DNA from: Armatimonadetes bacterium UBA1398
GTDB lineage: Bacteria > Armatimonadota > Zipacnadia > UBA1398
DNA: 64,000 nucleotides
Direction: 5' to 3'
Assembly: GCA_002305165.1 (NCBI GenBank)
Contig: DBQI01000065.1
Span: forward strand, 16,794 to 80,793
Shown here: positions 11,513 through 30,556 of the stretch, in pieces
Numbering within the stretch: the stretch's first letter is position 1
Layout of the letters: each line of letters opens with the position of its first letter
Made by a program: the position numbers and the translations under genes
The notes under the pieces: generated by a model
What the model was told of the DNA's origin: nothing
The model's input: the letters and a program-made list of their open reading frames with translations, nothing else
The model's database searches: none

Positions 11513-12704
11513 CGCGCGGATCGCCTATGTGCTTGGCTCGTTCCCGAGCCCATCGGAGACGTTCATCCTGACAGAGATGTCTCTGCTGCGAGAGCGGGAC
11601 ATTGAGCCACTCGTCGTCGCACTCGAGCGTGGCCCCGATGTGGGCGACGACCGCGTCGCGGCTCTTGAGGCTGCGGCTCGCTACCGTCCCGCGCGATGGG
11701 TCTGCGTCCTGCAGAGCCTGCTCTACGGCATCGGCGGGGATGCCCGCGCCCGACTCCACGGCGCCGCAGCGGCGCGGTTCGCGGAGCAGCTGGCCCCTCT
11801 GACCCCGACGCATGTACACGCTCACTTCATGGGGGCGCCAACCCTCGTAGGCCACGCCATGGCCCGCATGATGGGGCTCAGCTTCACCTTCAGTTGCCAC
11901 GCCTCCGATGTCTTCACGGCCGGCGACCCCACTCCCGAGGAGCATGCGGCCGTCTATGACGCCCACGCAATCATCGCATGCTCCGAGTACCTCCGGAAGC
12001 ACCTCATCGAGCGCAGGGGGTACCCCCGCGAGAAGGTCATCACCATCCACCATGGCATCGATCTGAGTCGAGTGCCGGAGCGCGCGGCTCCGACCGATTC
12101 CACCGAGCCGGTCTTGGTGGCCGTAGGCCGACTGGTTCCCAAGAAGGGCTTCGATGTGCTGCTGCGCGCGGCCGCGCCGATGCTGAAACAGGATCGGATC
12201 GCCCTGCGGATCGCAGGGGAGGGCCCTGAAGGAACGCGGCTTAGAGCCCTTGCCGTCGATCTCGGCGTGTTGGACCGGGTGGAGTTCCTCGGCCGGCTCA
12301 CGTGGGAGGACACCCTGCGGACGATAGCCGAGTCCAGCGCACTCATCGCGCCCTCAGTGACGGCCGAGGACGGCGACATGGACGGGATCCCCAACGTCCT
12401 CCTGGAGGCTGGCGCGTTGGGAGTGCCGGTCATCGCGAGCCGGCTGTCCGGCATCCCCGAGCTCGTCGAGGACGGCAAGACCGGGCTGCTCACAGCCTCC
12501 GGGGATGAAGGGGCGCTTGGCAAGGCGCTCCGCCGCGTCGCGGACAGCGCGGACCTTCGGGCGCAGCTCGGAGGAGCCTCTCGCGAACGGATCCGCCGCG
12601 AGTGGAGCGCAGCCGACTCCGTAGGCCAGATCGCTGGCTTGTTCCGCGAGGCAGCGGCTCACACGACTGTGCCGGTCGAAGGCATCGAAGGGGCGCGTGC
12701 GTGA
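11502..12704 (+). CDS. GT4 family glycosyltransferase
   Basis: Start set at ATG 11502 (M36 of track ORF 11397..12704), 11-nt overlap with previous gene; signature GIPNVLLEAGALGVPVIASRLSGIPELV. Confidence 0.75.
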   Translation: MDPSARIAYVLGSFPSPSETFILTEMSLLRERDIEPLVVALERGPDVGDDRVAALEAAARYRPARWVCVLQSLLYGIGGDARARLHGAAAARFAEQLAPLTPTHVHAHFMGAPTLVGHAMARMMGLSFTFSCHASDVFTAGDPTPEEHAAVYDAHAIIACSEYLRKHLIERRGYPREKVITIHHGIDLSRVPERAAPTDSTEPVLVAVGRLVPKKGFDVLLRAAAPMLKQDRIALRIAGEGPEGTRLRALAVDLGVLDRVEFLGRLTWEDTLRTIAESSALIAPSVTAEDGDMDGIPNVLLEAGALGVPVIASRLSGIPELVEDGKTGLLTASGDEGALGKALRRVADSADLRAQLGGASRERIRREWSAADSVGQIAGLFREAAAHTTVPVEGIEGARA

Positions 12705-13642
12705 CCGCATCCCCGAGCGCCGCGAGGATACTCGTTGCCGATGACGACGCGCAGCTTTGCGACGCCCTCGTCCAGCTTCTCGGCGTTGCCGGCCACTCGG
12801 TTCAGACCGCTGGCGACGGGTATGCCTGCATCGAGGCCATCCGGGCTTTCGAGCCCGATGTGCTGATCCTCGATCTCTCCATGCCGAACCTGGATGGTTA
12901 CGGCGTCATCCGCGAGATGGAGGTTCTCGATCTCGCGAGCCAGCCGCCCGATGTCATCGTCCTGACTGGGCACGCCGGCGTCTCGGAGGGGGCACGGGCC
13001 ATTCGCTCGGGGGCCATCGGCTTCCTCACCAAGCCGGCGCGGAGCGTCGAGCTCCTCACCCTCATCGATCGCGCGGTGGCGGCCCGACGGGCCCTCGACC
13101 AGAAGCTCAGCGCCTTCAGCGAGTCTCGCAAGCACTGGGAGTGTTCGGTGGCTTGCCAAAGACGCAACATACGCCACGTTGTGAACCACATCGCGGCGGA
13201 GATCGAGGTCACGGGCCTGATCCCGCCCCGAGGCATACGGCGGATCCTCATGGCGGCCGACGAGGCGATCACCAACGCGGTCGTCCACGGAGGCCTGGAA
13301 GTCGGGTCGCTGATCAAAGAACGGGCCGATTCCCTCGGCTTCGAGCAGGCCTGCGCCATTCGGGAGGCCCAGGCTGGGCACGGTGACCGTCGGGTGACTG
13401 TCGCCCTGGACATCAACCCTGACGAGTTGGTCATCACTATCCAGGACCAGGGCCCCGGGTTCGATGTGTCGGACCTGCCCGATCCGAGCGATCCGGACGC
13501 GCTATTCAGGGCGAGCGGCCGTGGTATCATCATCATGCAGTCCCTGCTTGATGAGGTCCGGTTCGAGGACGCCGGCAGACGAACCATCATGGTTCAGCGA
13601 GCGCGTGGTACCATAGAGGCGTCAGCCAAGCAGGTGATGTGA
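12701..13642 (+). CDS. response regulator receiver (REC) domain fused to RsbW/SpoIIAB-like HATPase_c domain
   Basis: GTG 12701 overlaps previous stop (GTGA). REC motifs ILVADDD, LILDLSMPNLDG, LTKPA; C-terminal GHKL-type ATPase-like region; no HisKA or DNA-binding domain seen. Confidence 0.6.
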   Translation: MTASPSAARILVADDDAQLCDALVQLLGVAGHSVQTAGDGYACIEAIRAFEPDVLILDLSMPNLDGYGVIREMEVLDLASQPPDVIVLTGHAGVSEGARAIRSGAIGFLTKPARSVELLTLIDRAVAARRALDQKLSAFSESRKHWECSVACQRRNIRHVVNHIAAEIEVTGLIPPRGIRRILMAADEAITNAVVHGGLEVGSLIKERADSLGFEQACAIREAQAGHGDRRVTVALDINPDELVITIQDQGPGFDVSDLPDPSDPDALFRASGRGIIIMQSLLDEVRFEDAGRRTIMVQRARGTIEASAKQVM

Positions 13643-14560: not shown

Positions 14561-14591
14561 AGAGGGGGCAGCTCCTAGAGCTGCCCCCTCT
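14561..14591. terminator. GC-rich hairpin between convergent genes (candidate bidirectional terminator)
   Basis: Perfect inverted repeat AGAGGGGGCAGCTC / GAGCTGCCCCCTCT with a 3-nt loop; no U-tract. Confidence 0.4.
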
Positions 14592-17166
14592 AACGTACCG
14601 GTCTCTGATCTGTGCGCTCAACCCTCACGGCCCCCGCCGCCTGGGCCTCGCGGTAGACATCCCTCGTTATGCGGTAGGGCAACGGGTCTGGAACCCCAGT
14701 GATCGAAAGGGGCCTGGGCGCGACCATAGCCGCCAGATGGGGCAGGTCCACGACAGACAGGATGTGGGGAGCCCGAGGCCCTGAGCGCCCCGCGGAGTAG
14801 GTCGGCCCGAGTTCGCGCACGTCCACGGCCTGGATGTTCGTGTCCATCGCCGCGGCGATCAGCGCCAGAACCCCGGCATCAGACCACGCGAGCAGCGAGA
14901 CTCGGGCCGGGTCGACCCCTGGCTGGGCGCGCAACCAGGCTACAGCGGCCAACATGTCGCGAGCGCCCTCCACGGCGGCGGGGCAGCCGAGGATCACCCC
15001 GTTCATGTTCAGCGTCTGCTTCGGGCCGGCCCCGGCGCACTCACCCATCCAGCGCGGATCCAACAGGAGCACGCGGCCTCCGCCCGCTACGACGCGGTGC
15101 AGCTCGCGGCGCGAACTCGACCAAGCCAAGCGCTTGCCCTCAGGATGCACGACAACCACCGCCGGTCCGGGGTCAGTGGATCCCTCGGGCTCGATCAGCA
15201 TCGCCGGAATGCTGAAGTCCGGATCGACGGCCAGGCTGAGCATCCTGGTTCGGAGCCCCACGACCTGGCCCTCGGTCACCTGGGTGGACCCGGGGACGGA
15301 CGGCGGGGCGAGCATGCCGCGTGACCACGCCAGCAGCTTGCCTCGCACCTGCTCGTTACACGCCTGGATCGTTCCGAGTGAGCGCAGTCGGGTGTACTGC
15401 TCGCCTCGACGCAGGTCGAACTCGCGCGCTATCGCCGCCAGCCCATCGGACTCAGGAGGGCTGTCCAGCGCGCTGAGCTCCTCGACCGTGGGGACTGGCA
15501 CGTCAAGCTCAGCCACTGGGCCGGCGTCGGGAAGCTCCCTGAGCCACCGATCCATGAACTGGTAGGTCTCCTCTCGCATGGCCTGGTTGTAGTCGTGGCC
15601 GGACTCGTGATGGGTGGCCCAGAGCTTCTCCTGAGCCCCGTAGAGCCCATAGACAGCCTGGACCTGGGGGAGATCCTCTGCGGGGAAGGTCGCCGTCCAG
15701 TCGCCCGTCACGGTGATGATGAGCGCCGGATCCGGCGCCATCCGGGCCGCCATCTCCGGAGCGTCGGTGTCCGCAGCCACCCCGGGCACATGATTGCAGT
15801 CGCAGTGGACCTCGTAGGGGTCCAGGATGGTGCGGAACTTGGACACCATGCAGACGGGAACTGCCGCCCTGAGCCGATCATCGACCGCCATGAGGTAGAA
15901 GGTCTGCTGGGCCCCTCCGGATACGCCGGCGCTGCCTATCCTATCGGGGTCAACGAAGGGGAGGGATTGCAGCAGGTCGATGGCGCGGATGTTGTTCCAC
16001 GTCATGACGGTCTGGGGCATGATCCCCCGCTCCCAGTCGTAGAGATGCACGCTGTCGGGAGCCAGGCAGACGTACCCCCGGAGCGCCAGGTTCACGAGGC
16101 GGGCCTGCACAATGGGGTGGCGGTTCCCGTTCTCCCAATGGCCGTGGGGGTTCAGCACGGCGCAAGCTCTGCCCTCGATATGGTCGGGCCGATAGAGGTA
16201 CCCTGCCGCCCAGTAGCCCGGCCAGGACTCCCAGTAGAGGCGCTGGACGGTGTAGCCCTCCCGCTCCATGCGGCGCCCCCAGTGGACATTCACCGGCCCA
16301 CGGCTGGGCAGCGGCCATAGGCCCAGGTCATCCAGCACTCTCTCGCGGATCTCATCGCGTCGCGCTTTCCACGCAGTCAGGTCTGCGGGCCTCCAGGGTC
16401 TAGGCTGGGCGATCCGCGTTAGGTAGGATGCGTACTGGTCTCGCATGGACTGGGGTGACAGAACCTCCATTGCCTGTGCCTCCCTAACTGCGGCCAACAC
16501 CTCGGGCGGTGTGCCGCGCCAGATGCTCAGGTTGTCGAGATCGCCCACATAGGGCTGGTGGGTGTCCAGGTTGTTGCCGGCACGGAGTTGTACTTCGGAG
16601 GGGCCCCCGGGGCCGGGCTGAGCGAGGGCTCGCAGTTCGCCGTCGATCTCCACCCACGCGAGCGCCAACTCGGCGTCGTGGCCCGCGCGGACACGGTGCC
16701 ATTCACCGTCGTTCACCGCGCCTGCGCTTCCCAGCTTCACCCGGCGCCACGACCACAGCTCGAAGGACAGGTGCCCGGGATCGCGGCCGATCACGACGCT
16801 CCAACTGACCTCACCCCCGGGTGCCGTCTTCGTCATCAGCAGTGTTGCGAAGCTCCGCTGCACGGTGCGCATGAGGAACTCGATCGTGAAGCTACTCTCG
16901 CTGTCGAATGCCCAGGCCGAGGATCCCGGCCACGTGATGGCTTCCGAGCCTTCGGAGAAGCTCAGCCAGCGGTTCTGCCCTTCACCGGCCCGGAGACCAT
17001 CGGCCACTGGGACTTCCACGGCCAGGGCCCCGTCACCAACGGCCGGGCCAGATTGCTCGTCGAAGCCCCAGGAAGCCACCAGATCCATCTGAGCCTGCCC
17101 CGACGACGCCAGCAGCGCCCCTACCATGGCAAGGCCGGCCCAGTGCGAACGATACACTCCCATCAC
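14590..17166 (-). CDS. secreted LamG/concanavalin-like lectin domain plus alpha/beta-hydrolase (esterase/peptidase-like) protein
   Basis: 858 aa; signal peptide; N-terminal LamG-like segment (FTIEFLMRT...GEWHRV); C-terminal hydrolase with nucleophile elbow GVSGGAQQT. Confidence 0.55.
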   Translation of the reverse strand: MMGVYRSHWAGLAMVGALLASSGQAQMDLVASWGFDEQSGPAVGDGALAVEVPVADGLRAGEGQNRWLSFSEGSEAITWPGSSAWAFDSESSFTIEFLMRTVQRSFATLLMTKTAPGGEVSWSVVIGRDPGHLSFELWSWRRVKLGSAGAVNDGEWHRVRAGHDAELALAWVEIDGELRALAQPGPGGPSEVQLRAGNNLDTHQPYVGDLDNLSIWRGTPPEVLAAVREAQAMEVLSPQSMRDQYASYLTRIAQPRPWRPADLTAWKARRDEIRERVLDDLGLWPLPSRGPVNVHWGRRMEREGYTVQRLYWESWPGYWAAGYLYRPDHIEGRACAVLNPHGHWENGNRHPIVQARLVNLALRGYVCLAPDSVHLYDWERGIMPQTVMTWNNIRAIDLLQSLPFVDPDRIGSAGVSGGAQQTFYLMAVDDRLRAAVPVCMVSKFRTILDPYEVHCDCNHVPGVAADTDAPEMAARMAPDPALIITVTGDWTATFPAEDLPQVQAVYGLYGAQEKLWATHHESGHDYNQAMREETYQFMDRWLRELPDAGPVAELDVPVPTVEELSALDSPPESDGLAAIAREFDLRRGEQYTRLRSLGTIQACNEQVRGKLLAWSRGMLAPPSVPGSTQVTEGQVVGLRTRMLSLAVDPDFSIPAMLIEPEGSTDPGPAVVVVHPEGKRLAWSSSRRELHRVVAGGGRVLLLDPRWMGECAGAGPKQTLNMNGVILGCPAAVEGARDMLAAVAWLRAQPGVDPARVSLLAWSDAGVLALIAAAMDTNIQAVDVRELGPTYSAGRSGPRAPHILSVVDLPHLAAMVAPRPLSITGVPDPLPYRITRDVYREAQAAGAVRVERTDQRPVR

Positions 17167-17177
17167 CCTCCTCGGGG

Positions 17178-19298
17178 CTATGGGAGGCCGAGGTCACGCA
17201 GAGGCTTCAGCGCCGCCTCGGCCCGCTCGTCTTGCCCCAGCGAGCGGTAACACTCCGCCAAACGCAGTCGTTCTTCCTTCTCCGCGGGAGGAACACGGAA
17301 GGCGAACGCCTGCTCGAAAGCCTCGATGGCGCCTCGGGCGTCGCCCGCCTCGTAGAGGGCGTTCCCGAGGGCTTTGTTCAGAGGTCCCAGCACCGTGATG
17401 TCCCAGACGCGCCGCCGGTGTCGTTCGAGGAGCCGCGCTGCCGACTCGGGCTGGCCCAGCGCGCGGCGGATTCGCGACTCCTGGATCACAAGCCTGTCGT
17501 GATGCGGCGCGATCTCCCGACCGAGAGTGATGAGCCCGAAGGCCCCCCACGGATCGCCATAGAGGAGCCGCTCGTCGCTCAGTTCCAGCAGTGGCGCCAT
17601 CGCCATCTCGCGGACGCCACGGTCCGTTGGGTGCTCCGCCATGCACCACCGCGCCCAAGCGAGACACTCCCGGACCAGCGCCTCATATGTGGCGGGGTCC
17701 TCCTCGGCCAGATTCACGGGATGGGCGGTGACTTGGCTGACCCAGCCTCGTGTCTCAAGGTGCGCCCCGGCCGCCTCGTACCAACGCGCCCCCGCGGAGA
17801 ACACCCCGCCAGCCCGCACTGCCAGGCTAGCCAGGTGGCGCTCGCGCTCCAGGAAGACCTGCTGGAAGGACCCCTCGACCTCTTCCTGGCTGGCGCCCAT
17901 CCACTCCTGCACGTAGCGGTACGAGTTGTCATCCAGTTCGGGGGCGAGCCAGACCCGTTGCTCGGTGCTCTGCTCCACATTGCGGCAGTAGTAGAGCGGG
18001 AAGATCCGATGGTCGCCGACGACATGCTCATCACCGCAGATGAGATCCGTTGCGGGATTGCCTAACGCGGCGATAGCCCGGTCGGCGTAGTAAGCGGCCA
18101 TCCACTCGGTGCTCCGATCCACCTCCCTGTAAGTGCGCGGCGTCTCGGCGAGCAGCCAGGCCAGAAGGACTGACAGGATGATCGCCACCGCCTTCCTCCC
18201 CCGCTCCTGGGCATCACCGAGGAGGAAGGCGATCCCGTGCAGGCCGGCCCCCGCCAGCCCAACTATCCCGAGGTAGGCGGGGATGAAGAACACCTCCTGG
18301 TCCATCGCCGTGTAGTTCCAGAAGAAGCCGAGGGAGGCCACCGCTAGCCACGCGAAAGGCGCCAGGCGCGTCCCCGCCGGACGCCACCCCACGACGTACC
18401 CGCCGAGGGCAAGCGCCCAGACGGGAAGCGACAGCTCCGCTGCTAGGCGGTGCCAGTCTCCCCTGAGCATCGTCCCCCAGAGAGGCGGCTGGGCGCCCCA
18501 CATGAACCGGCGGTAGGGGCCTGCTGAGATGGTGAACTTGAAGTCAGCCCAGGTCTTCGGCTTCGCCCAGCAGTACGCGGCTCCCTGATCCAGGTGGGGC
18601 CACGCCCCAGCCCGCAGCGGGAGATGCAGCCATACCAACTGAGACAGCAGGTACCCGCCCACGAAGGCTCCCAGCACGCTCCATCTCAGCCATAGGCGTC
18701 GAGGCTGTCCGATGAACAACGGCAGCAGCCCCAGTTGAAGGAGCGCGTTGAAGGGCCGGTGGGTGACGGCGAGCCCCAGGAGCAGTCCCAGCCCCAGCGC
18801 CCACCACCAGCGCACCGCTTGGCCCGCTTCCAGCCCTCTCCGCATCCGCAGCGCCCCCGCCAGCCCTGCCGTCAGGAGGGCTATGTCGAGGGTGTACACC
18901 TCGGTCAGGGTGGCCTGGTCCCAGACTACAGGGGTCAGGCAGAAGGCCCACGTGAGGAGCAGGGCGGTGACGTCGTGGCGGACCAGCTCGCGTAGTGAGA
19001 TGAACAGGAATAGGCCCGCGAAGCCCAGCCAGATGGCTGAGAGCAGGTTGGCGCTCGCCGCCAGGGAGGCGAGGGGCACGACCTGGCTCCAGCCCCAGGT
19101 CAGGAGCACCCACAATGGGTAGCCGGGCGCATGGGCGATGCCTCGCTGCCCCACGGCGGACAGCAGTTCGCCCGCGTCCCCGAAGGTGATCGATGGCGCC
19201 ACGGTCCAGACCACTACTGCCAGCACACCGAGGGACGAGAGAGCGCCACATACCGGGCAGCTTACGGCGGCGAGGTTAGTGGTCAGGGGACGCTGCAT
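17178..19298 (-). CDS. DUF2723-like multi-pass membrane protein (putative GT-C/PMT-like glycosyltransferase) with C-terminal TPR-like repeats
   Basis: 706 aa; N-terminal about 400 aa of hydrophobic helices with FGDAGELL motif; soluble C-terminal helical repeat region. Confidence 0.55.
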   Translation of the reverse strand: MQRPLTTNLAAVSCPVCGALSSLGVLAVVVWTVAPSITFGDAGELLSAVGQRGIAHAPGYPLWVLLTWGWSQVVPLASLAASANLLSAIWLGFAGLFLFISLRELVRHDVTALLLTWAFCLTPVVWDQATLTEVYTLDIALLTAGLAGALRMRRGLEAGQAVRWWWALGLGLLLGLAVTHRPFNALLQLGLLPLFIGQPRRLWLRWSVLGAFVGGYLLSQLVWLHLPLRAGAWPHLDQGAAYCWAKPKTWADFKFTISAGPYRRFMWGAQPPLWGTMLRGDWHRLAAELSLPVWALALGGYVVGWRPAGTRLAPFAWLAVASLGFFWNYTAMDQEVFFIPAYLGIVGLAGAGLHGIAFLLGDAQERGRKAVAIILSVLLAWLLAETPRTYREVDRSTEWMAAYYADRAIAALGNPATDLICGDEHVVGDHRIFPLYYCRNVEQSTEQRVWLAPELDDNSYRYVQEWMGASQEEVEGSFQQVFLERERHLASLAVRAGGVFSAGARWYEAAGAHLETRGWVSQVTAHPVNLAEEDPATYEALVRECLAWARWCMAEHPTDRGVREMAMAPLLELSDERLLYGDPWGAFGLITLGREIAPHHDRLVIQESRIRRALGQPESAARLLERHRRRVWDITVLGPLNKALGNALYEAGDARGAIEAFEQAFAFRVPPAEKEERLRLAECYRSLGQDERAEAALKPLRDLGLP

Positions 19299-19655
19299 AC
19301 CGGAGAGGGATCAGCCACCCAGCCCGCGACCCGCGGGCAGCTTAGTACTGCCGCTTCGCGCGCGTTGAGAGCAGGTTGCCGAGCCCAGGAAGTCGCCTCC
19401 TTGGCCATGGGTCGTGGTGTGCCACATCACGGTTCGGTGCCCGCACACTGTCGTCACGCAGGTCTGCGCACAAGGTTCCGCACTGTTGCGGAAGCTTTGT
19501 GTCGTCTTCCCCGCATGAGTGCGCTGACCTGCCGCGCAGCTCTGTCGGAGGACGGCGCGCAGGCTGCGGGAATACCGAAAGCAACGGTGCAGGCACGCTC
19601 GGAGGCCCGTCGGGTCCTAAAGAGACGTGTCATCCGCTGGTTCGGAGGAGTGTCG

Positions 19656-20321
19656 ATGAGTAAGTCCACCCGCCGGCAGGTTGTCGCCGCCCTCATCGCC
19701 GCAGCGGCATCCCTCGCAGGCTGCACCAAGGGCGACAAAGGTTCCGGCGCAGCGGCCCCAGTATCGGAGGCTTCCAAGGGCCAGGATCCCGTCCTTGCCA
19801 CCCTCGGGGCCGCGCAGAAGGCCGAGCACGCCCTGCTCCTCTCCTTCGAGACCTACGCCACCGCCACCCAGCGTGATGACCCGAGCTTCAGCGTGCTCTA
19901 TCGCGCTCTGGCCCGGAGTTGTGAGGTGCGCCTTGAGGCCCTCACCGAGGCCATCGTCGCAAAGGGAGGCGCGGTGCCCGAGTCCCCAGCGAGCGCGAGC
20001 GCAAGCACACTCGCCGGGGATCTCCAGAAGGCCATCGCGGACGTGGGGGATCTCTCCTCCAACCTCTACCCCGAACTGCGCTCGAACGCGGTCAAGGCCA
20101 AGGATACGGCGGCGGTCCAGGTCCTCGCCTATGGTGTGCAGGTCCTTCCCGAGATGGAGAGCCTCCTGCAGGCAGGGGCCGAGGGACTGGCCTCCGGCGC
20201 CCCGCCCTCGGTACAGACCTACTATGTCTGCCCCACCTGCGGCCACGTCACCACGACCCTCGACTTCGACGAATGTCCCTACTGCTACACCATGGCGAGG
20301 GACTTCGAAGCGATTAGCTAG
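19656..20321 (+). CDS. rubrerythrin-like lipoprotein (ferritin-like domain plus C-terminal rubredoxin-like Cys4 ribbon)
   Basis: ATG at 19656 with GGAGGAG 5 nt upstream; N-terminus MSKSTRRQVVAALIAAAASLAGC (twin-Arg-like plus lipobox); C-terminus YYVCPTCGH...ECPYCY. Confidence 0.5.
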   Translation: MSKSTRRQVVAALIAAAASLAGCTKGDKGSGAAAPVSEASKGQDPVLATLGAAQKAEHALLLSFETYATATQRDDPSFSVLYRALARSCEVRLEALTEAIVAKGGAVPESPASASASTLAGDLQKAIADVGDLSSNLYPELRSNAVKAKDTAAVQVLAYGVQVLPEMESLLQAGAEGLASGAPPSVQTYYVCPTCGHVTTTLDFDECPYCYTMARDFEAIS

Positions 20322-20440
20322 GCGCCAGCGTGATCGACCCTCCTAGATGATGCGCTTCGGGTGTCGCGGCAGCCTTGCCCGCAGGCCCTGGGCCGTGGCA
20401 TCCCGAACCTGCCTGGTCCTGACACGGAAGGAGTCCTCCC

Positions 20441-22420
20441 ATGATTCTCCCCATGCGACAGATCCACCTCGATTTCCACACCTCCGAGAAGATCGCGGGG
20501 ATCGGCGCCGATTTCGACGCTGACCGCTTCGCGGACACCCTCAAGCGCGCCCACGTGAACTCCGTCACCCTCTTCTCCCGCTGCCACCACGGCTGGATCT
20601 ACCATGACACCAAGTTCACCGAGGCTCGACATCCGCACCTTGAGTGCGACCTGCTTCCCCTACAGATGGAGGCCTGCCGCGCTCGGGGCATCCAGACGCC
20701 CGTCTACATCACCGTCGGACTGGATGAGCGCGTCGCGCGGGAGCATCCTGAGTGGCGAGAACTCCACGCGGGCGGACTCACAGGCGCGGGGCCCCTCGAT
20801 GCCGGCTGGCGTCCCCTCTGCTTCAGCACGCCCTACCTCGACTTCGTGCTCGAGCAGACGCGGGAGGCGCTGGAGCGGTACCACCCCGAGGGCCTCTTCT
20901 TCGACATCATGCACCAGGGGCCGTGCTGCTGCGCCTGGTGTCTGGCAGGCATGGAGGCCGATGGCCTCGACCCCACCGACCCAGCGACGAGGGCTACCTT
21001 CGCCGCCGGCGTCCTGAGACGGGCGAAGGAGCGGCTCCACGGCGTCGTGCGCGAGGCGGGGCCCGATGTCCGCTGCTTCTTCAACGCCGGCCACATCGAT
21101 CCGGCCATCCGCGACTCCCTGGACCTCTACTCGCACCTCGAGATCGAGTCCCTCCCCACGGGGGGATGGGGCTACATGCACTTCCCGGTGACGGTGCGCT
21201 ACGCGCGGGGACTCAACCGTGAGTGTCTCGCCATGACCGGCAAGTTCCACGCGACCTGGGGCCACTTCAGCTCCTTCAAGAACCCCATTGCCCTGGAGTA
21301 TGAGGCCCTCGTCGGGCCCGCCAATGGCGCCGCCGTATCGATCGGCGACCAGCTCCATCCGCGTGGGGCCCTCTGTGAGGAGACCTACGATCGCATCGGG
21401 CGCGTGTACGCGATGGTGGAGGAGCGCGAGCCCTGGTATCTCGACGCCGAGCCGGTCACGGAGATCGCCCTCTTCAACACCGAAGCATGTGAGCCGATCC
21501 CGGGCATCGGCCTCGAGAAGGCGGTCACGGGGGCGACTCGCATCCTCATGGAGGGCCACCACCAGTTCGACATCGTCGATGGCGACATGGACTGGACCCC
21601 CTACTCGGTCCTCGTCCTCCCCGACAAGGTGGCGCTCGATGGCCCCCTTGCCGCGAAGGTTCGGGCCTTTGTCGACGCCGGCGGGCGTGTGCTGGCCACC
21701 CACCGGTCGGGGGAGGCCGCCGGCGGCGAGGCTCGCTTCGCCCTACCGGAGTGGCCGGTCGATGCCATTGGCGCTCAGCCCCTACATCCCGACTTCATCC
21801 TAGCCTTAGAGCCTCTCGCCAGGGGGCTGCCGGGGGTGCCCTTCGTCGCTTATGAACCGGGCCTCGAGGTTGCCGCCCGGCCTGGCTCCGAGGTGCTAGC
21901 GGAGGCCTACTCGCCCTACTTCGAGCGGACCTATGCGCACTTCTGCTCCCACGCCCACTCGCCAGTGGCGGGCAAGGCAGCGTACCCGTCCGCCGTGCGC
22001 AAGGGCGGCATCATCTACCTCTCTCACCCCCACTGCTCGGCTTACGTGACGCACGGCCAGACAGAAGACGCCCAGATCGTCCGCAATGCCCTCGATCTGC
22101 TGCTCCCCTCGCCCCTGGTGCGGGCTGGAGCGCCCTCGACGTGCCACATCACCATTACGCGCCAGCTCGAGCGCGGGCGCTGGATCGTTCACCTGCTCCA
22201 CTACATCCCCGAGCGGAGAGCAGAGGGCCGGGACCTCATACAGGACGTCATTCCCCTTCACGCCGTACCGCTCAGCATCCGGACTCCGGTCCCGCCATCG
22301 GCCTGCACCCTCGTGCCCTCGGGAGAAGCGGTGGAGTTCACTTGGCACGGCGGAAGGGTGGAGCTCACCCTATCGAAGATCCGTGGCAATCAGATGGTCG
22401 CGCTGGAGGGCGTCTGCTAA
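20441..22420 (+). CDS. GH42-like glycoside hydrolase (TIM barrel plus trimerisation/GATase1-like domain)
   Basis: 659 aa; GGAAGGAG RBS upstream; middle domain motif YSVLVLPDKVALDGPLAAKVRAFVDAGGRVLATH; no signal peptide. Confidence 0.55.
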   Translation: MILPMRQIHLDFHTSEKIAGIGADFDADRFADTLKRAHVNSVTLFSRCHHGWIYHDTKFTEARHPHLECDLLPLQMEACRARGIQTPVYITVGLDERVAREHPEWRELHAGGLTGAGPLDAGWRPLCFSTPYLDFVLEQTREALERYHPEGLFFDIMHQGPCCCAWCLAGMEADGLDPTDPATRATFAAGVLRRAKERLHGVVREAGPDVRCFFNAGHIDPAIRDSLDLYSHLEIESLPTGGWGYMHFPVTVRYARGLNRECLAMTGKFHATWGHFSSFKNPIALEYEALVGPANGAAVSIGDQLHPRGALCEETYDRIGRVYAMVEEREPWYLDAEPVTEIALFNTEACEPIPGIGLEKAVTGATRILMEGHHQFDIVDGDMDWTPYSVLVLPDKVALDGPLAAKVRAFVDAGGRVLATHRSGEAAGGEARFALPEWPVDAIGAQPLHPDFILALEPLARGLPGVPFVAYEPGLEVAARPGSEVLAEAYSPYFERTYAHFCSHAHSPVAGKAAYPSAVRKGGIIYLSHPHCSAYVTHGQTEDAQIVRNALDLLLPSPLVRAGAPSTCHITITRQLERGRWIVHLLHYIPERRAEGRDLIQDVIPLHAVPLSIRTPVPPSACTLVPSGEAVEFTWHGGRVELTLSKIRGNQMVALEGVC

Positions 22421-22951: not shown

Positions 22952-23992
22952 CTACTCGCTCACGACGCAGCGAAAGCCCGTCAACGGCATATAGCGTGCG
23001 ACCAAGTCGGGCTCTACATACCCTCTGAAGGGGATCATGGCAAACTGGGGGTTATTCGACGCCTCGGTCGCTCCGTACGAGCCGCCCCGAAGGATCAGGC
23101 GCTCGGGGTGCCCGGTCCACATGCCGAGGACCCACTCCCGCACGTTGCCCGCCATGTCGAACACGCCGTAGGGCGACTCGTCGCGCTCATAACTCATCAC
23201 GGGCCGAGGCTCGCCAACGAGGGTACCCGTGTTCGCGTCTCCCTGCTCGAAGCGGTCCCCCCAGGGGAAGAGTCGGGCGTCCGCATCGCCACGCGCAGCC
23301 TTCTCCCACTGATCCTCCGTTGGCAGCCTCTTCCGCGCCCAGCGCGCGTAGGCGTCGGCATCGCTGAGGGTGACGTGGGTCACCGGGTCATCCTCACGGC
23401 CGGCCGGGGGCGCGTTTCCCCCCCAGTGCGACGGCGGCTCGTAGCCGGTCTCCTCAACGAACGCGGCGTACTGCCTGTTCGTCACCTCGTGAACGTCGAT
23501 CCAGAAGCCTGGTAGCTCCACCCGACGGGTGGGGTTCATGTCCTGAGCCCGGGGGTCTTGGTAGTCGGCGGGGTAGCCCGCCTCGAACGGCCCTGCGGGC
23601 ACCCAGACCATGACCGCGCCATCGGGCGTCGCCACCGCGAAGCCCGGGTCCATGATCTGCGCCTCTTGGTCGGGCAGGGGGATCGCGCCTACTGGGAGGG
23701 GGTGCGGTGTGATGAGCCGCACCGGCCGCACCACGGCCGTTTCGCCCTCCACCAGTTCAACCTCGCGGGTGGCCTCGTTGTACGCCTCCATGCTGAGTGT
23801 GAGGGTTACCGTTCGCCTCTCGGCGCCCTGGAGATCGATGTCCCTCTGGAGCGGCGTGTTGCCGATCTCCTCGCCATCCAGCGTCACGAGGGCGCCTGGC
23901 GGGATGGACTCGACCTCCAGACGCGCCGAAGCCACGGCGGGCGCCGATACCAGAACGACCGCCAGCCAGAGGAGGCCGTGATGGAGTCGCAT
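22952..23992 (-). CDS. secreted PEGA domain plus FGE-sulfatase-fold (SUMF1/EgtB/PvdO family) protein
   Basis: Start set at ATG 23992 (AGGAGG 8 nt upstream; track starts at GTG 24001). PEGA-like LEVESIPPGALVTLDGEEIGNTPL; FGE-like WVPAGPF..., RVELPGFWIDVHEVTNRQY, LRGGSYG, GFRCV. Confidence 0.65.
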   Translation of the reverse strand: MRLHHGLLWLAVVLVSAPAVASARLEVESIPPGALVTLDGEEIGNTPLQRDIDLQGAERRTVTLTLSMEAYNEATREVELVEGETAVVRPVRLITPHPLPVGAIPLPDQEAQIMDPGFAVATPDGAVMVWVPAGPFEAGYPADYQDPRAQDMNPTRRVELPGFWIDVHEVTNRQYAAFVEETGYEPPSHWGGNAPPAGREDDPVTHVTLSDADAYARWARKRLPTEDQWEKAARGDADARLFPWGDRFEQGDANTGTLVGEPRPVMSYERDESPYGVFDMAGNVREWVLGMWTGHPERLILRGGSYGATEASNNPQFAMIPFRGYVEPDLVARYMPLTGFRCVVSE

Positions 23993-24045
23993 TGCCTCCA
24001 CCTCCTATCTCTAGCCTCTCAGACGCGGCGACGACCCGGTTGGCT

Positions 24046-27381: not shown

Positions 27382-29253
27382 ATGAGTGAAGAGCGCGAAG
27401 TGCTCAAACGGGTAGCGGATGGGCGCAGCGACCCGGGCATCCTGGCCCGAGAGGCTGGCCGTGCGGACGAGGACTCCCTGTGCATCCGGGAGTTCGACGG
27501 AGACCGAGGCGCCCTCTATGCGGTCGCCGACGGGCTGAGCGGCAGGAACGCCGGCAGCGTCGCTAGCGCCCAGGCGGTTGGCCTGCTCGAGGAGGCTTTG
27601 GAGGCGTACGCCCGCCACGGCGAGGCGCTCCTCCAGCAGCTCGGTCCGGCCCTCCCCGACCTCAGGGCCTACATCGACTACGTCGCCGTGCGGATCGACG
27701 CCCAGTTGCGCGCCAACGCCGAGGCGAATCCCAGCCTGGCGGGGATGGCGACGAGCCTTACGGCGGCCTACGTGGATGGCCGGGACCTCCTCATCGCCCA
27801 TGTCGGCGACTCCCGCGCCTACCGCGCCCGCGCCACGGAGTCTGGGCTGCAGCAGCTCACCATCGACGATGCCCCCGTGGATGACGAGGAGTTCGATCCC
27901 CCTCCCTCCAAGGCCCTGGGCGACGCCGACGAGCAGCCACTGCGCATCGATCAGTACCGCGCGGAGGATGGAGACATCCTCCTGCTTTGCACTGACGGGC
28001 TGTGGCGCGAGGTCGACTGTGCGCTCATGGAACGCATCCTGAAGGGGTCCCCGCGCCCCTCGATGGCCGTCGAGAGGCTCATCCGCGCGGGGAACCAGGC
28101 TGGCGGACGTGGCAACATGGCCGCCGTCGTCGTTCACATCGGCGAGGTTGACCTGACCGACGACGAGGCCCTGGATTCGGCCTTCCCCGTCGGCGGCGCC
28201 GCCCCCAAGCAGGCTCCCGTGGAGCCCCCCGCAGAGACGCAACCAGAGCCCGAGCCCGAACCGCCGGTGGAGGAGCCTGCCGCCGAGGCCCCCGAGAACA
28301 CGCCCCCCCCGGAGGAGCCGGCCATTGAGGAGCCGGCCCCCGAGGCTACCGAGGAGGCCCCGAGGGAGGAGCCGGGACCGGTCATACCGGGTCCGCCAGC
28401 AGGTGGCTATGCGGCCGTCCCCGAGGTCGTGGGCCGGGCAACCTACCCGCGCCCCGCGGAGATACCCGACGACGCCCTGCGTCCCCGGCGCGAGACGGCG
28501 GCGGGCGAGGCTAGGTCCAGCGACTCGGCCCTGTTCCTCCTGGGGCTTGTGTCGGGCATCGCCTTCATGCTCGTCATCGGCGGCATTTTCTGGGGCCTTA
28601 AGGCGTGGGCCGGGAAGCCCACCGAAGCGCCGCGAGCCACTGCCACGAGCACCGATCACGTCGACTATGAGGAGATTGTGACCCATCCCGTCAGCTTCTG
28701 GGCCAAGCCTCTGGGGCCGGGGGGGCGGCCGTGCATGATCCTCACCAAGAGTCTCCACGAGGAGACGGGCGAGGAGTCGTGGGAGGAACTGCCTCGCCTT
28801 CAGGGCAATGAGAGCGGCCCATCGGGCTCTGTCAGCCTCTTCCGCCAGGGCGACGCGCTTCACATGTTCCTGGATGTGCAGTTCATCGCGTCCGAGGCCG
28901 GCCTGCCACGCGACTGCCTGCTCTCCCTCAAGGTCATGCCCGACGAGGGCAACCGGACCCAGACCGTCATCACCGCGGGCCCTGACGCCGGCGAGCAGCG
29001 GGACGGGCACATCGAGGTCATCAGCATCCGCCCCGGGAGCGTGAGCCTGGTACCACAGGATCCCGACGAGCGGCTGATCGCGGGCGGCAAGGCCGAGGCG
29101 ACGATGGGCGGCCAAGTCAACGCGTCGGGCTATTACGTGCAGCACTTCGACAAGGTGCCCTTGGGCACGTACCTCGCCAAGAAGGGCAGCAGCGAGCGGA
29201 TCGTCGAGATCACGGCCGCCAAGCGACGGGTGACAGTCACCTTCACCGAGTGA
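27382..29253 (+). CDS. membrane-anchored PP2C-family Ser/Thr protein phosphatase with extracytoplasmic C-terminal domain
   Basis: Start at ATG 27382 (internal to track ORF 27310..29253). PP2C motifs LYAVADGLSG, GMATSLTAAYV, AHVGDSRAY, LLLCTDGLW; Pro/Glu-rich linker; TM helix LFLLGLVSGIAFMLVIGGIFWGL. Confidence 0.75.
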   Translation: MSEEREVLKRVADGRSDPGILAREAGRADEDSLCIREFDGDRGALYAVADGLSGRNAGSVASAQAVGLLEEALEAYARHGEALLQQLGPALPDLRAYIDYVAVRIDAQLRANAEANPSLAGMATSLTAAYVDGRDLLIAHVGDSRAYRARATESGLQQLTIDDAPVDDEEFDPPPSKALGDADEQPLRIDQYRAEDGDILLLCTDGLWREVDCALMERILKGSPRPSMAVERLIRAGNQAGGRGNMAAVVVHIGEVDLTDDEALDSAFPVGGAAPKQAPVEPPAETQPEPEPEPPVEEPAAEAPENTPPPEEPAIEEPAPEATEEAPREEPGPVIPGPPAGGYAAVPEVVGRATYPRPAEIPDDALRPRRETAAGEARSSDSALFLLGLVSGIAFMLVIGGIFWGLKAWAGKPTEAPRATATSTDHVDYEEIVTHPVSFWAKPLGPGGRPCMILTKSLHEETGEESWEELPRLQGNESGPSGSVSLFRQGDALHMFLDVQFIASEAGLPRDCLLSLKVMPDEGNRTQTVITAGPDAGEQRDGHIEVISIRPGSVSLVPQDPDERLIAGGKAEATMGGQVNASGYYVQHFDKVPLGTYLAKKGSSERIVEITAAKRRVTVTFTE

Positions 29254-30556
29254 CGAGCCAGCCGTCGCCGGATTCCGGCGCCGCCAGTCGCCCCAAGCGC
29301 TCCAGGGGCGGCATGGCGGCGAGGGCCGACAGGGCCCCATCGATGCCAACCCGAGGCGCCAGCGCGTCGGTGGCCTGCCGGCTCATCCAGACACGGTGGA
29401 ACAGCGTGTAGCAGCCCTCGGCGTGGAACTCGCCGAGCGGCCAGACGCCACGGGCCGCGATGACCCTGCCGCCGCCCACGTCCAGGGCGTAGAAGATGAG
29501 CTCATCGTCGCTGAAACCGGCGCTGAAAGCGCTTCCATAGGGGTTGGAGGCGGCGAGAACCACCTCCGCCCCGGAGTCCTCGATCCGGCTCCGCACCTCG
29601 TCCTCCAGGGCCCCGGCGCCCGGGGCAGCCCGCTCAGGCGGTGGGCCGACGAAGACGCGGATCGCCTCACTGAGCGCCCCATCCGCGCCGCTACCGCCAG
29701 GCCCGCGCAGGATCAGATACCCATCCTGGCGCTGACCGGCGGCGTCCCGCACCACCTCAGCCGTCCAGTCGGCGGGCATCCACAGCGTCACCTGCGCCCC
29801 CGGCACCCCAGCCGGTCGCCAAGCGGCCGAGGACCCGGTAGGCTCTCGGCCCCCCAGGGCGACCTGGAGCGGCAGTTCGAGGTCGAGGAGGCCGGCGGCC
29901 TGGCGTGCCGCAGCGGCCCACGGCGGGTCCGCCGGGCCATTCGGCGAGTCGAACTGGCCTGCCACGGTGGCAGCGAGTCGGGCGCTACGGGCGAGCAGAC
30001 GCTCGCCGTCCGGCATCTCGAGGATGCGCCGCCCAGCCACCATAAGGCGCTCGGGGCTCACGGGCTCCTCCAGAGCGATGGACACCCCGAAACCGGCCGC
30101 CTGGAGCCGCGCCGCCGCCCAGAGCAGATCGAGCACTCGGCGGCCGGTGATGGGCTCATCGCCGGGGAGGTCCAGAGGTTCCAGGCAGGCGCGGAAGCTC
30201 CGCAGCCACGCCCCCAGCGGTCCTGGGTCGCGTTCGCCGGAGGTCTCCAGGGCCTGCCGCACGGTGTCCTGGGCGCCGGCCGAGTCGGCGGAGCCGCTGC
30301 CGGCGAGGCGCTGCACCGAGTCCACAAGCGCCGCAAGGTCATTCCGGGACTCCGGCCGCCGGTTCCACTCGTCGTCGACGGCGAGCCGCAGGCTCTGCAT
30401 CTCACGCGGCCCAAGGCGCTCGCCGTAGGCGAACTGCACCAGGGAGGCCACCGCCGGCGCGATGCCCTCGGGCGGCCCCTGCGCCTCGACGGTCTGGATA
30501 AGGGCCATCAGCAGGGCCCCGAGGGTGGCCGAGCGGCGGATGGCACGCGCCGTCAC
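29243..30556 (-). CDS. hypothetical secreted protein
   Basis: 437 aa with signal peptide MTARAIRRSATLGALLMALIQTVEAQG; preferred over antisense ORF 29396..30739 on composition; 3' end overlaps the PP2C 3' end by 11 nt. Confidence 0.4.
   Translation of the reverse strand: MTARAIRRSATLGALLMALIQTVEAQGPPEGIAPAVASLVQFAYGERLGPREMQSLRLAVDDEWNRRPESRNDLAALVDSVQRLAGSGSADSAGAQDTVRQALETSGERDPGPLGAWLRSFRACLEPLDLPGDEPITGRRVLDLLWAAARLQAAGFGVSIALEEPVSPERLMVAGRRILEMPDGERLLARSARLAATVAGQFDSPNGPADPPWAAAARQAAGLLDLELPLQVALGGREPTGSSAAWRPAGVPGAQVTLWMPADWTAEVVRDAAGQRQDGYLILRGPGGSGADGALSEAIRVFVGPPPERAAPGAGALEDEVRSRIEDSGAEVVLAASNPYGSAFSAGFSDDELIFYALDVGGGRVIAARGVWPLGEFHAEGCYTLFHRVWMSRQATDALAPRVGIDGALSALAAMPPLERLGRLAAPESGDGWLVTR

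What the first reader, a model, noticed from the sequence alone, without database searches (positions are those of the whole stretch)
19656..20321. Rubrerythrin-like protein predicted to be an exported (twin-arginine-like) lipoprotein
The product ends with a rubredoxin-like Cys4 ribbon (YYVCPTCGH...ECPYCY) after a helical ferritin-like region, but unlike cytoplasmic rubrerythrins it starts with MSKSTRRQVVAALIAAAASLAGC, i.e. an RR motif, hydrophobic core and lipobox. A metal-cofactor protein exported folded and lipid-anchored would be an unusual extracytoplasmic peroxide/iron-handling protein.
Basis: partly seen in the sequence, partly recalled or inferred. Interest (0 to 1): 0.5.

Follow-up and report, generated by a model that had tools for sequence, protein, structure and literature searches.

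The report
Exported rubrerythrin-like lipoprotein lacking di-iron site
This gene encodes a membrane-tethered, probably exported copy of the normally cytoplasmic peroxide-detoxifying protein rubrerythrin that has lost its iron-based catalytic centre but kept its small four-cysteine metal domain, so it is a repurposed relative and not a peroxidase.

The parts
19644..19649 (+). Shine-Dalgarno-like GGAGGA, 6 nt before the ATG
   Evidence: Read directly from the sequence. The L004 orthologue has GGAGG at the same distance from its TTG start.
19656..20321 (+). CDS of the 221-aa rubrerythrin-like lipoprotein precursor, stop codon included
   Evidence: GC3 is 0.82 and dN/dS is 0.16-0.39. Five to six orthologues exist.
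19656..19724 (+). Signal peptide, aa 1-23. The twin-arginine motif T5-R6-R7-Q-V-V has its RR codons at 19671-19676. An Ala-rich h-region follows, then the lipobox L20-A21-G22-C23 at 19713-19724.
   Evidence: RR and Cys23 are invariant in all six orthologues. AF2 models residues 6-20 as an isolated helix. RR-bearing relatives have less hydrophobic h-regions than the others, as expected for genuine Tat signals.
19725..19787 (+). Disordered tether of the mature lipoprotein, aa 24-44
   Evidence: pLDDT is 53-60 with no secondary structure. Mean pairwise identity among orthologues is only 30%.
19788..20192 (+). Ferritin-like four-helix bundle, aa 45-179, with helices 45-70, 76-102, 119-147 and 151-179. 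The former di-iron ligand codons are E57 19824-19826, C89 19920-19922, R92 19929-19931, V130 20043-20045, L133 20052-20054, L164 20145-20147 and M167 20154-20156.
20220..20318 (+). Rubredoxin-like Cys4 knuckle, aa 189-221. The Cys codons are C192 20229-20231, C195 20238-20240, C207 20274-20276 and C210 20283-20285. The CxxC-x11-CxxC spacing matches nigerythrin.
   Evidence: Pfam RUBY_RBDX scores below threshold (13.7 bits against 26.5). This is the most conserved region of the family: 23 of 33 residues are invariant and mean identity is 79%.
19299..19655 (+). 358-nt leader/intergenic region, with blocks conserved in the 56%-identical L004 orthologue locus and a hairpin at 19476-19493
   Evidence: fold z-score -2.3. 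No Rfam family matches. Its function is unknown.

Best explanation
The gene encodes a lipid-anchored, extracytoplasmic nigerythrin-type rubrerythrin homologue that has lost its di-iron catalytic centre.

Shown:
- The fold is nigerythrin-like, a four-helix bundle plus a Cys4 knuckle in the same mutual arrangement as in nigerythrin.
- Six of the seven di-iron ligand positions are replaced. The Fe1 side becomes Glu57/Cys89/Arg92. The Fe2 side becomes Val130/Leu133/Leu164/Met167.
- The Cys4 knuckle is intact and is the most conserved region.
- The N-terminus carries an invariant RR motif and a lipobox, followed by a disordered tether.

Inferred:
- The protein folds and loads one metal ion (Fe or Zn) on the Cys4 site in the cytoplasm.
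- It is translocated by Tat, acylated on Cys23 by Lgt and cleaved by signal peptidase II.
- It then hangs from a membrane into the periplasm-like space.

It cannot reduce peroxide or oxidise iron the way rubrerythrin does. Its function must run through the Cys4 domain. The most likely role is a membrane-tethered one-electron (rubredoxin-like) carrier or redox module. The bundle would be kept as a metal-free scaffold, plugged by a Glu57-Arg92 pair and hydrophobic side chains.

My confidence by step: fold and family about 0.9, loss of di-iron chemistry about 0.9, extracytoplasmic lipoprotein about 0.75, Tat route about 0.6, electron-carrier role about 0.3.
For: - Ligand loss: hhalign of the family against 31 intact exported relatives (probability 99.9%, E 3e-33) and an independent MAFFT alignment give the same mapping, E/C,R/V,L/L,M. 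Cys89, Arg92 and Leu133 are invariant in the family.
- Selection: dN/dS is 0.16-0.39.
- Signal: RR at residues 6-7 and Cys at residue 23 occur in all six orthologues, including a mis-called one. The motif fits the TatP pattern RR.[FGAVML][LITMVF], which I recalled from memory. RR-bearing relatives have less hydrophobic h-regions (median 2.32 against 2.73, p 0.0017).
- Tether: low pLDDT and 30% identity.
- Cys4 domain: 79% identity against 56-59% for the bundle.
- Relatives: 119 of 139 nearest cluster representatives carry signal-like N-termini. This makes export a property of the whole clade and not a one-off artefact.
Against: - No signal-peptide predictor was available and no tat, lgt or lsp genes could be checked. 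The window holds no TatA-like motif.
- The signal is short for a Tat signal at 23 residues, and basic n-regions also occur in Sec lipoproteins.
- Nothing shows whether the Cys4 site binds Fe or Zn.
- The gene neighbourhood gives no functional support. The neighbours are a TMEM260-like glycosyltransferase and a GHL6 hydrolase.
- DUF2231, the membrane partner typical of exported relatives, is absent from the 64-kb window and from all family loci.
- The model coordinates could not be inspected, so the Glu57-Arg92 plug is inferred only from homology to the Fe1 site of rubrerythrin.
Confidence: 0.5

Rival explanations
1. It is a non-redox pseudoenzyme. The Cys4 knuckle binds structural zinc, and the protein serves as a periplasmic scaffold, binding protein or signalling accessory tethered to the membrane.
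For: The catalytic ligands are lost but the fold is kept under purifying selection. The former metal cavity is filled with hydrophobic residues. In the most divergent orthologue locus a GAF-HATPase kinase gene lies 26 nt upstream. Exported relatives are usually encoded next to two-component systems.
Against: The CPxCG/CPxC knuckles and their spacing are those of iron-binding nigerythrin. The kinase in L001 is soluble and cytoplasmic and is absent from this window. A twin-arginine route is most easily explained by a cofactor loaded before export.
Confidence: 0.28
2. This is the first reader's reading: a functional extracytoplasmic rubrerythrin that reduces peroxide or handles iron at a di-iron site.
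For: The fold and Cys4 domain are those of nigerythrin. Many signal-bearing relatives do keep all seven ligands (44 of 119), so exported catalytic rubrerythrins probably exist.
Against: In this family only 1 of 7 ligand positions is retained. Both His positions and four of the five Glu positions are gone in all members, and two alignment methods agree. No Pfam Rubrerythrin hit appears at E up to 10.
Confidence: 0.04
3. It is a thiol-based peroxide-reactive protein. The vacated Fe1 half-site (Glu57, Cys89, Arg92) forms a Cys-Arg-Glu centre analogous to Ohr/OsmC or peroxiredoxin active sites, and the Cys4 centre acts as the electron entry point.
For: The three residues occupy positions whose side chains converge on Fe1 in rubrerythrin (mapping; the geometry comes from the published structures, recalled from memory). 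Cys89 and Arg92 are invariant in the family. Cys at this position is unique among 139 relatives.
Against: No coordinates could be inspected. An Arg-Glu pair is also the simplest way to plug an empty metal site. His-to-Arg at this position recurs in other degenerate relatives that lack the Cys. There is no resolving Cys outside the Cys4 knuckle.
Confidence: 0.07
4. The protein is exported as a lipoprotein through Sec and not Tat. The RR pair is simply the basic n-region.
For: The signal is short at 23 residues. Most signal-bearing relatives lack RR (107 of 121). The query's own h-region hydrophobicity (2.75) is near the non-RR median.
Against: RR sits at a fixed distance from the lipobox in all six orthologues while neighbouring residues vary. 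The motif context [T/N]RR[Q/E]-hydrophobic-hydrophobic matches the Tat consensus. Across the clade, RR-bearers have less hydrophobic h-regions.
Confidence: 0.25
5. The protein is not exported at all. The N-terminal segment is a chance hydrophobic stretch or a mis-called start, and the protein is cytoplasmic like classical rubrerythrins.
For: Classical rubrerythrin and nigerythrin are cytoplasmic (PMC545781). No predictor or experiment was available here.
Against: There is no alternative in-frame Met before residue 167, and the RBS fits ATG 19656. The n-h-lipobox architecture is conserved in all orthologues. Even if uncleaved, the positive-inside rule would put the folded domains outside. 86% of the nearest relatives share an N-terminal signal-like extension.
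Confidence: 0.07

Closest known systems
Nigerythrin of Desulfovibrio vulgaris (PDB 1YUX/1YUZ/1YV1; NCBIfam NF045783)
   Different: Identity is only 19-20%. Nigerythrin is cytoplasmic with no signal peptide and has all seven di-iron ligands and peroxidase activity. This protein keeps 1 of 7 ligands and carries a Tat-type lipoprotein signal and tether. It scores 40 bits against an equivalog cut-off of 340.
Classical rubrerythrin (Pfam PF02915 + PF21349; NCBIfam NF045767; PDB 1RYT, 1NNQ)
   Same: It shares the ferritin-like four-helix bundle followed by a rubredoxin-like Cys4 domain, and the conserved 'xYP' motif in helix C.
   Different: There is no PF02915 hit, and the PF21349 hit is below threshold. 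The E-x-x-H/E-x-x-E/E-x-x-H ligands are lost. The predicted location is extracytoplasmic.
Uncharacterised signal-peptide-bearing rubrerythrin-family proteins, annotated 'rubrerythrin family protein', 'ferritin family protein' or 'hypothetical protein' (Bacteroidota, Ignavibacteria, Sumerlaeota, Hydrogenedentota, Planctomycetota, Armatimonadota, cyanobacteria)
   Same: These are the nearest relatives in sequence space (E 1e-18 to 1e-8 to the family profile). They are about 200-250 aa with an N-terminal signal or lipoprotein signal, a tether, a bundle and a Cys-rich knuckle. Many also have eroded di-iron sites (53 of 119 with 4 or fewer ligands), and some have RR signals.
   Different: Identity is at most about 33%. 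Most use Sec-type signals. 37 of 46 genome loci have a DUF2231 membrane-protein gene within 4 kb, often with an OmpR-type two-component system. None of this is present here. Cys at the E53 position is unique to this family.
Tat-dependent lipoproteins (described in Streptomyces and haloarchaea; from memory, not tested here)
   Same: They combine a twin-arginine n-region with a lipobox in one short signal peptide.
   Different: This is a class defined by export route and not a homologous family. I know of no rubrerythrin-like member.
Sulerythrin / symerythrin (rubrerythrin-like proteins lacking the rubredoxin domain)
   Same: They are divergent members of the same superfamily and are detected with the clade profile.
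   Different: They kept the di-iron site and lost the Cys4 domain. This protein did the reverse.

Membership tests
Rubrerythrin family (PF02915/PF21349; NF045767) | [quoted passage not shown] | tested here: met
Rubrerythrin family (PF02915/PF21349; NF045767) | Seven di-iron ligands: E, E-x-x-H, E-x-x-E, E-x-x-H | tested here: not met
   The positions map to E57, C89/R92, V130/L133 and L164/M167, so 1 of 7 is kept. hhalign and MAFFT agree, and all family members have the same or an equivalent pattern.
Rubrerythrin family (PF02915/PF21349; NF045767) | Four Cys of the Fe(Cys)4 site | tested here: met
   C192, C195, C207 and C210 are invariant. Metal identity is not testable here.
Rubrerythrin family (PF02915/PF21349; NF045767) | Score above curated model thresholds | tested here: not met
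   No PF02915 hit at E up to 10. PF21349 scores 13.7 bits against a cut-off of 26.5. No NF045767 hit.
Nigerythrin equivalog (NF045783) | Whole-protein score of at least 340 bits | tested here: not met
   40 bits, E 4.5e-10, aligned over residues 46-219. It is a homologue and not an equivalog.
Rubrerythrin family | Peroxidase activity with reduced rubredoxin or NADH | not testable with these tools
   This needs purified protein. Activity is predicted to be absent from the ligand loss.
Twin-arginine (Tat) signal peptides | Z-R-R-x-hydrophobic-hydrophobic motif at the n/h boundary | tested here: met
   The motif is T-R-R-Q-V-V here and TRRQVL, TRREVL, TRREAM, NRRQIL and NRRQVL in the orthologues.
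Twin-arginine (Tat) signal peptides | Moderately hydrophobic h-region, less hydrophobic than Sec signals | tested here: inconclusive
   The family's best 10-residue windows score 1.98-2.75. RR-bearing relatives have a median of 2.32 against 2.73 for the others (p 0.0017), but the query itself is at 2.75.
Twin-arginine (Tat) signal peptides | tatA/tatC present in the genome, and export dependent on RR | not testable with these tools
   Only 64 kb of the genome is available, and it holds no TatA-like motif. An experiment is needed.
Bacterial lipoproteins | Lipobox [LVI][ASTVI][GAS]C at the end of the h-region | tested here: met
   L20-A21-G22-C23 here; VAGC, ISGC and LAGC in the orthologues, always with Cys at position 23.
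Bacterial lipoproteins | Acylation by Lgt and cleavage by LspA | not testable with these tools
   This needs labelling or globomycin experiments, or the whole genome.
Exported rubrerythrin-DUF2231 gene clusters (uncharacterised, seen in relatives) | DUF2231 (PF09990) membrane-protein gene within a few kb | tested here: not met
   An HMM built from the relatives' DUF2231 proteins finds nothing in the 64-kb window or in family loci. It finds one in 37 of 46 signal-bearing relatives' loci.

The most novel reading that the evidence does not exclude
The rubrerythrin scaffold has been converted from a di-iron peroxidase into a metal-free, thiol-based peroxide-reactive protein working outside the cytoplasm. 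Glu57, the family-unique Cys89 and Arg92 sit at the three former Fe1-ligand positions and form an Ohr/peroxiredoxin-like Cys-Arg-Glu centre. The retained Fe(Cys)4 knuckle re-reduces it, and the folded, metal-loaded protein is delivered by Tat and lipid-anchored.
Probability: 0.07. Interest if true: 0.8.

Novelty: new variant of a known kind. Interest (0 to 1): 0.45.

Why it matters
Rubrerythrins are textbook cytoplasmic peroxide reductases of anaerobes and microaerophiles.

- **An extracytoplasmic branch.** This gene, and the relatives found while checking it, point to a large and essentially undescribed exported branch of the family. Some members keep an intact di-iron site and are candidate periplasmic peroxidases. 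They are usually encoded with a DUF2231 membrane protein and a two-component system.
- **A clean example of active-site loss.** Other members, like this one, have shed the catalytic site but keep the Cys4 centre. This family is a clear, selectable case of that loss combined with a switch to a twin-arginine lipoprotein signal.
- **What testing it would give.** It would show whether a rubredoxin-type centre operates outside the cytoplasm. It would suggest a function for DUF2231. It would also show how a metalloenzyme scaffold is re-used once its metal site is gone.

On its own the gene is a narrow-range hypothetical protein with no informative neighbours, which limits its immediate value.

Tried and rejected
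- **Gene neighbourhood as a functional clue.** The TMEM260-like GT-C enzyme, the AXE1-like protein, the GHL6 hydrolase and the PEGA-FGE protein are syntenic in close relatives but not functionally suggestive.
- **A partner histidine kinase.** A GAF-HATPase gene sits upstream of the orthologue only in L001/L007. It is soluble and has no homologue in the window.
- **Partners and paralogues in the window.** I searched for DUF2231, a TatA motif and an intact rubrerythrin paralogue and found none.
- **The 358-nt leader.** There is no Rfam family and no sigma-70-like promoter. The fold signal is modest (z -2.3), and with only two divergent sequences covariation could not be tested.
- **AlphaFold-database fold search.** The library was unavailable.
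- **Literature.** No paper contains the phrases 'periplasmic', 'exported', 'secreted', 'extracellular' or 'extracytoplasmic rubrerythrin', or 'rubrerythrin-like lipoprotein'. Broader searches on rubrerythrin with signal peptide/periplasmic, twin-arginine, or lipoprotein/exported found nothing relevant. The main rubrerythrin phylogenomics paper does not mention signals, periplasm or membranes. DUF2231 appears in one database paper only.
- **Alternative frames.** ORFs at 19681-20346 (+) and 19617-20246 (-) were rejected as high-GC shadow ORFs, given the homology, GC3 and structure support for the reported frame.
- **Phylogenetic origin.** The nearest non-family relatives at 27-33% identity mix degenerate and intact proteins, so the ancestor state is unresolved.

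Full report
**1. Observation**

A GGAGGA sequence ends 6 nt before the ATG. The product starts MSKSTRRQVVAALIAAAASLAGC and ends with YYVCPTCGH...ECPYCY.

The frame is coding. GC3 is 0.82 in a 68% GC window. dN/dS against five orthologues is 0.16-0.39, with synonymous sites saturated for the distant pairs. Two long overlapping ORFs in other frames are the usual shadow ORFs of high-GC DNA.

**2. Family and fold**

- Pfam gives only a sub-threshold hit of the C-terminus to the rubrerythrin rubredoxin-like domain (13.7 bits against a cut-off of 26.5). It gives no hit to the Rubrerythrin bundle model.
- NCBIfam's nigerythrin model aligns end to end (residues 46-219, E 4.5e-10), but at 40 bits against an equivalog cut-off of 340.
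- The best solved relative by sequence is D. vulgaris nigerythrin (E 3.6e-6).
- An AlphaFold2 model built on a 75-sequence alignment is confident (pLDDT 89.5, pTM 0.80). It has an isolated N-terminal helix (6-20), a disordered stretch (21-44), four long helices (45-179) and a small C-terminal knuckle.

The protein is therefore a true homologue of the rubrerythrin/nigerythrin family with both domains in the nigerythrin arrangement.

**3. The di-iron site is gone**

I aligned the family against 31 signal-bearing relatives that keep all ligands (hhalign, probability 99.9%, E 3e-33, 183 columns). Both give the same mapping:

| Rubrerythrin ligand | This protein |
|---|---|
| E20 | Glu57 |
| E53 | Cys89 |
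| H56 | Arg92 |
| E94 | Val130 |
| E97 | Leu133 |
| E128 | Leu164 |
| H131 | Met167 |

Only one ligand of seven is kept, and all family members show the same or an equivalent pattern (ECRVLLM, ECRVLLL, ECRALWA). Cys89, Arg92 and Leu133 are invariant.

The bundle still clearly belongs to the rubrerythrin family and not to an unrelated one. The Fe2 half of the cavity has become hydrophobic. The Fe1 half has become a Glu/Cys/Arg cluster.

**4. The Cys4 knuckle is the functional core**

All four cysteines are invariant. The spacing CxxC-x11-CxxC and the flanking 'DF..CP.C' context are those of nigerythrin. Among four orthologues spanning 50-75% identity, conservation by region is as follows:

| Region | Mean pairwise identity |
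|---|---|
| Cys4 knuckle (23 of 33 residues invariant) | 79% |
| Helical pairs | 56-59% |
| Tether | 30% |

Whatever the protein does, selection acts hardest on the Cys4 domain.

**5. The export signal**

No signal-peptide predictor was available, so the case rests on sequence logic and conservation.

- Six orthologues were examined: the window, P0001/L005, L081, L004, L001 and the Armatimonadia MAG locus L007.
- All of them have [T/N]-R-R-[Q/E] followed by two hydrophobic residues at positions 5-10.
- All have an Ala/Leu-rich h-region and a lipobox (LAGC, VAGC or ISGC) with the Cys at position 23.
- The other n-region residues and the tether vary freely.
- One database entry (P0002) seemed to lack the RR. 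Its gene call is truncated, and a GTG 30 nt upstream restores TRREVL.
- Among relatives, RR-bearing signals have less hydrophobic h-regions than the rest (median 2.32 against 2.73, Mann-Whitney p 0.0017). That is a known trait of genuine Tat signals, although the query itself (2.75) sits near the non-RR median.
- Even if the signal were not cleaved, the positive-inside rule would put the folded domains outside the cytoplasm.

I rate an extracytoplasmic lipoprotein at about 0.75 and the Tat route at about 0.6. tat, lgt and lsp genes could not be checked. The window contains no TatA-like motif, which says little for 64 kb of a genome.

**6. How rare is the family, and what are its relatives?**

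A word-indexed search of 5.8 billion proteins found only four relatives at 50-98% identity. One of them is called 'rubrerythrin' by JGI. NCBI calls the Armatimonadia orthologue MBD3174476.1 a hypothetical protein. The closest genome hit is an Armatimonadia MAG at 49% identity with shared synteny, so the window is probably from Armatimonadota.

An exhaustive HMMER search of 1.84 billion cluster representatives with the family profile found one family representative (E 2e-112). After a large gap it found 490 more distant proteins. I analysed the 139 non-fragment single-domain proteins among the best 150 with simple hydrophobicity, lipobox and RR heuristics:

- 119 have a signal-like N-terminal extension.
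- Of these 119, 44 keep 7 of 7 ligands, 22 keep 5-6 and 53 keep 4 or fewer.
- RR motifs occur in 12 of the 119, and 10 of those 12 have 4 or fewer ligands (Fisher p 0.005, crude and not corrected for phylogeny).

The profile included the signal region and is itself degenerate, which biases the ranking somewhat. However, many matches begin only at profile position 35-50 and those proteins still carry signals.

The intact signal-bearing proteins hit both NCBIfam nigerythrin and rubrerythrin models, but far below the equivalog cut-offs (for example 133 against 340 bits). No solved structure belongs to this exported branch.

I found no open-access paper that describes exported rubrerythrins. [quoted passage not shown] The main phylogenomic study of rubrerythrins never mentions signals, periplasm or membranes (PMC5114695).

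**7. Context**

Around this gene the conserved neighbours are a divergently transcribed TMEM260-like GT-C glycosyltransferase with TPR repeats, an AXE1/S9-like hydrolase and a downstream GHL6-family hydrolase. None suggests a function. In the most divergent orthologue loci a soluble GAF-HATPase kinase gene is inserted 26 nt upstream. It has no homologue in the window.

The more distant signal-bearing relatives have a very consistent context.

- **Bacteroidota and Ignavibacteria:** the gene order is DUF2231 membrane protein, OmpR-type response regulator, HAMP/HisKA kinase, then one or two lipoprotein rubrerythrins.
- **A Hydrogenedentota contig:** a degenerate relative is followed 69 nt later by DUF2231.
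- **Locus L088:** a canonical Tat-signal degenerate relative (SRRDFIKLG) is followed by a signal-less intact rubrerythrin, a DUF2231 gene and an ECF sigma/anti-sigma pair.

An HMM of these DUF2231 proteins finds one within 4 kb of 37 of 46 signal-bearing loci. It finds one in only 4 of 25 other loci, and several of those four are mis-called starts or Tat-type signals my threshold missed. The difference is significant (Fisher p 1.6e-7, not phylogeny-corrected). The HMM finds none in the 64-kb window or in any family locus. The present family has therefore lost both the di-iron site and the DUF2231 linkage.

**8. Mechanism**

Shown:
- A nigerythrin fold.
- Loss of six of seven di-iron ligands.
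- An intact and highly conserved Cys4 knuckle.
- A conserved RR-lipobox signal.
- A disordered tether.
- Purifying selection.

Inferred:
- Cytoplasmic folding and loading of a single metal on the Cys4 site.
- Tat translocation.
- Lipidation at Cys23 and cleavage.
- Display on the extracytoplasmic face of a membrane.

The protein cannot perform rubrerythrin's di-iron peroxidase or ferroxidase chemistry. My preferred reading (about 0.3 for this last step) is a membrane-tethered rubredoxin-like one-electron module, with the bundle kept as a metal-free scaffold. Three points support it: the knuckle is of the iron-binding nigerythrin type, it is the most conserved part, and a Tat route is what one expects for a centre that must be assembled before export.

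A zinc-containing non-redox scaffold or signalling accessory is nearly as likely (0.28). A more adventurous reading is that Glu57-Cys89-Arg92 form a thiol-based peroxide-reactive centre of the Ohr/peroxiredoxin type. Invariant Cys89 and Arg92, and the uniqueness of that Cys among 139 relatives, keep this open. His-to-Arg at the same position recurs in other degenerate relatives without the Cys, which favours a simple salt-bridge plug. I could not inspect model coordinates (probability about 0.07).

**9. Verdict**

The protein is a rubrerythrin homologue with a conserved twin-arginine lipoprotein signal, but it is not a peroxide or iron-handling enzyme of the rubrerythrin type. It fails membership of the rubrerythrin and nigerythrin functional families on ligands and model thresholds, while clearly descending from them.

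I class it as a new variant of a known kind. It is a narrow, probably Armatimonadota-specific, di-iron-less offshoot of a large exported rubrerythrin branch for which I found no published description. Interest is moderate at 0.45. The gene itself has no informative context. It does, however, point to an extracytoplasmic rubrerythrin/DUF2231 system that appears unstudied and is readily testable.

Noticed in passing
L008-L080 (genome-contig loci), e.g. L011 6365-10672, L019 7152-10579, L066 405-3800: A conserved gene cluster appears across Bacteroidota and Ignavibacteria, and in part in Sumerlaeota and Opitutia. Its order is DUF2231 membrane protein, OmpR-type response regulator, HAMP/HisKA histidine kinase, then one or two signal- or lipoprotein-bearing rubrerythrins with all seven di-iron ligands. 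DUF2231 lies within 4 kb of 37 of 46 signal-bearing loci against 4 of 25 others. It looks like an undescribed extracytoplasmic rubrerythrin system.
   Followed up: partly
L016, L019, L031, L048, L066 and about 35 other Bacteroidota/Ignavibacteria loci (C-termini of the rubrerythrin-like genes): In these exported rubrerythrins the fourth Cys of the knuckle is replaced. The motif is 'YYVCPTCGNTY...RCGISMT', that is CxxC...CxxS, a Cys3-Ser (or Cys3 plus Met) variant of the rubredoxin-like site.
   Followed up: no
L088 5001-8421: A degenerate rubrerythrin-like protein with a textbook Tat signal (MKYSRRDFIKLG...) is followed by a signal-less 179-aa rubrerythrin with intact ligands. A DUF2231 gene and an ECF sigma/zf-HC2 anti-sigma pair come next. 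The layout suggests a cytoplasmic and a periplasmic rubrerythrin-type protein on either side of a membrane partner.
   Followed up: partly
P0005 (1338 aa) and P0006 (1957 aa), from the representative search: These are giant secreted proteins made of six and eight tandem, apparently intact rubrerythrin repeats (bundle plus Cys4 each) behind a signal peptide. P0006 ends in SLH-like cell-wall-anchoring repeats.
   Followed up: no
window 19299-19655 (and L004 2008-2319): The 358-nt region upstream of the gene keeps several conserved blocks (for example GTGCG.T.ACCTGCC, CGGAGGAC, CACGGTGC) in a locus whose protein is only 56% identical. It contains a terminator-like hairpin at 19476-19493 and folds somewhat better than shuffles (z -2.3). 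There is no Rfam match and no sigma-70-like promoter.
   Followed up: partly
L001 4374-5651 and the same position in L007/L002/L003: In the most divergent orthologue loci a soluble GAF-HATPase_c kinase-like gene (425 aa, no HisKA domain detected) is inserted 26 nt upstream of the rubrerythrin-like gene. It is absent from the window.
   Followed up: partly
L081 639-1304 (protein P0002): The database gene call for this orthologue is truncated at an internal Met. A GTG 30 nt upstream restores the TRREVL twin-arginine motif.
   Followed up: yes
L085 4352-5666 and L086/L087 3778-6586: Other degenerate relatives sit in different contexts. One lies 11 nt after a sirohaem-synthase-like (CysG-type) gene, downstream of a GAF-sigma54 activator (Phycisphaerae). 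Another lies between a divergent lgt (lipoprotein diacylglyceryl transferase) and a GerE-type response regulator (Planctomycetota-like).
   Followed up: no
window 17178-19298 (-), 14590-17166 (-), 20441-22420 (+), 22952-24001 (-): The neighbours are a TMEM260-like GT-C glycosyltransferase with C-terminal TPRs, an 858-aa secreted Laminin_G/AXE1/S9-like hydrolase, a GHL6/GH42M-like hydrolase without a signal, and a PEGA-domain formylglycine-generating-enzyme-like protein. The first three are syntenic with the orthologue loci.
   Followed up: partly
window 29243-30556 (-): This is the only other ORF in the window with a possible twin-arginine-type N-terminus (MTARAIRRSATLGALLMALIQTVEAQ...). I did not characterise it.
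   Followed up: no
window 12602-13642 (+): A response-regulator receiver domain is fused to an HATPase_c_2 (RsbW/anti-sigma-kinase-like) domain. The same protein is present in the L005 relative.
   Followed up: no
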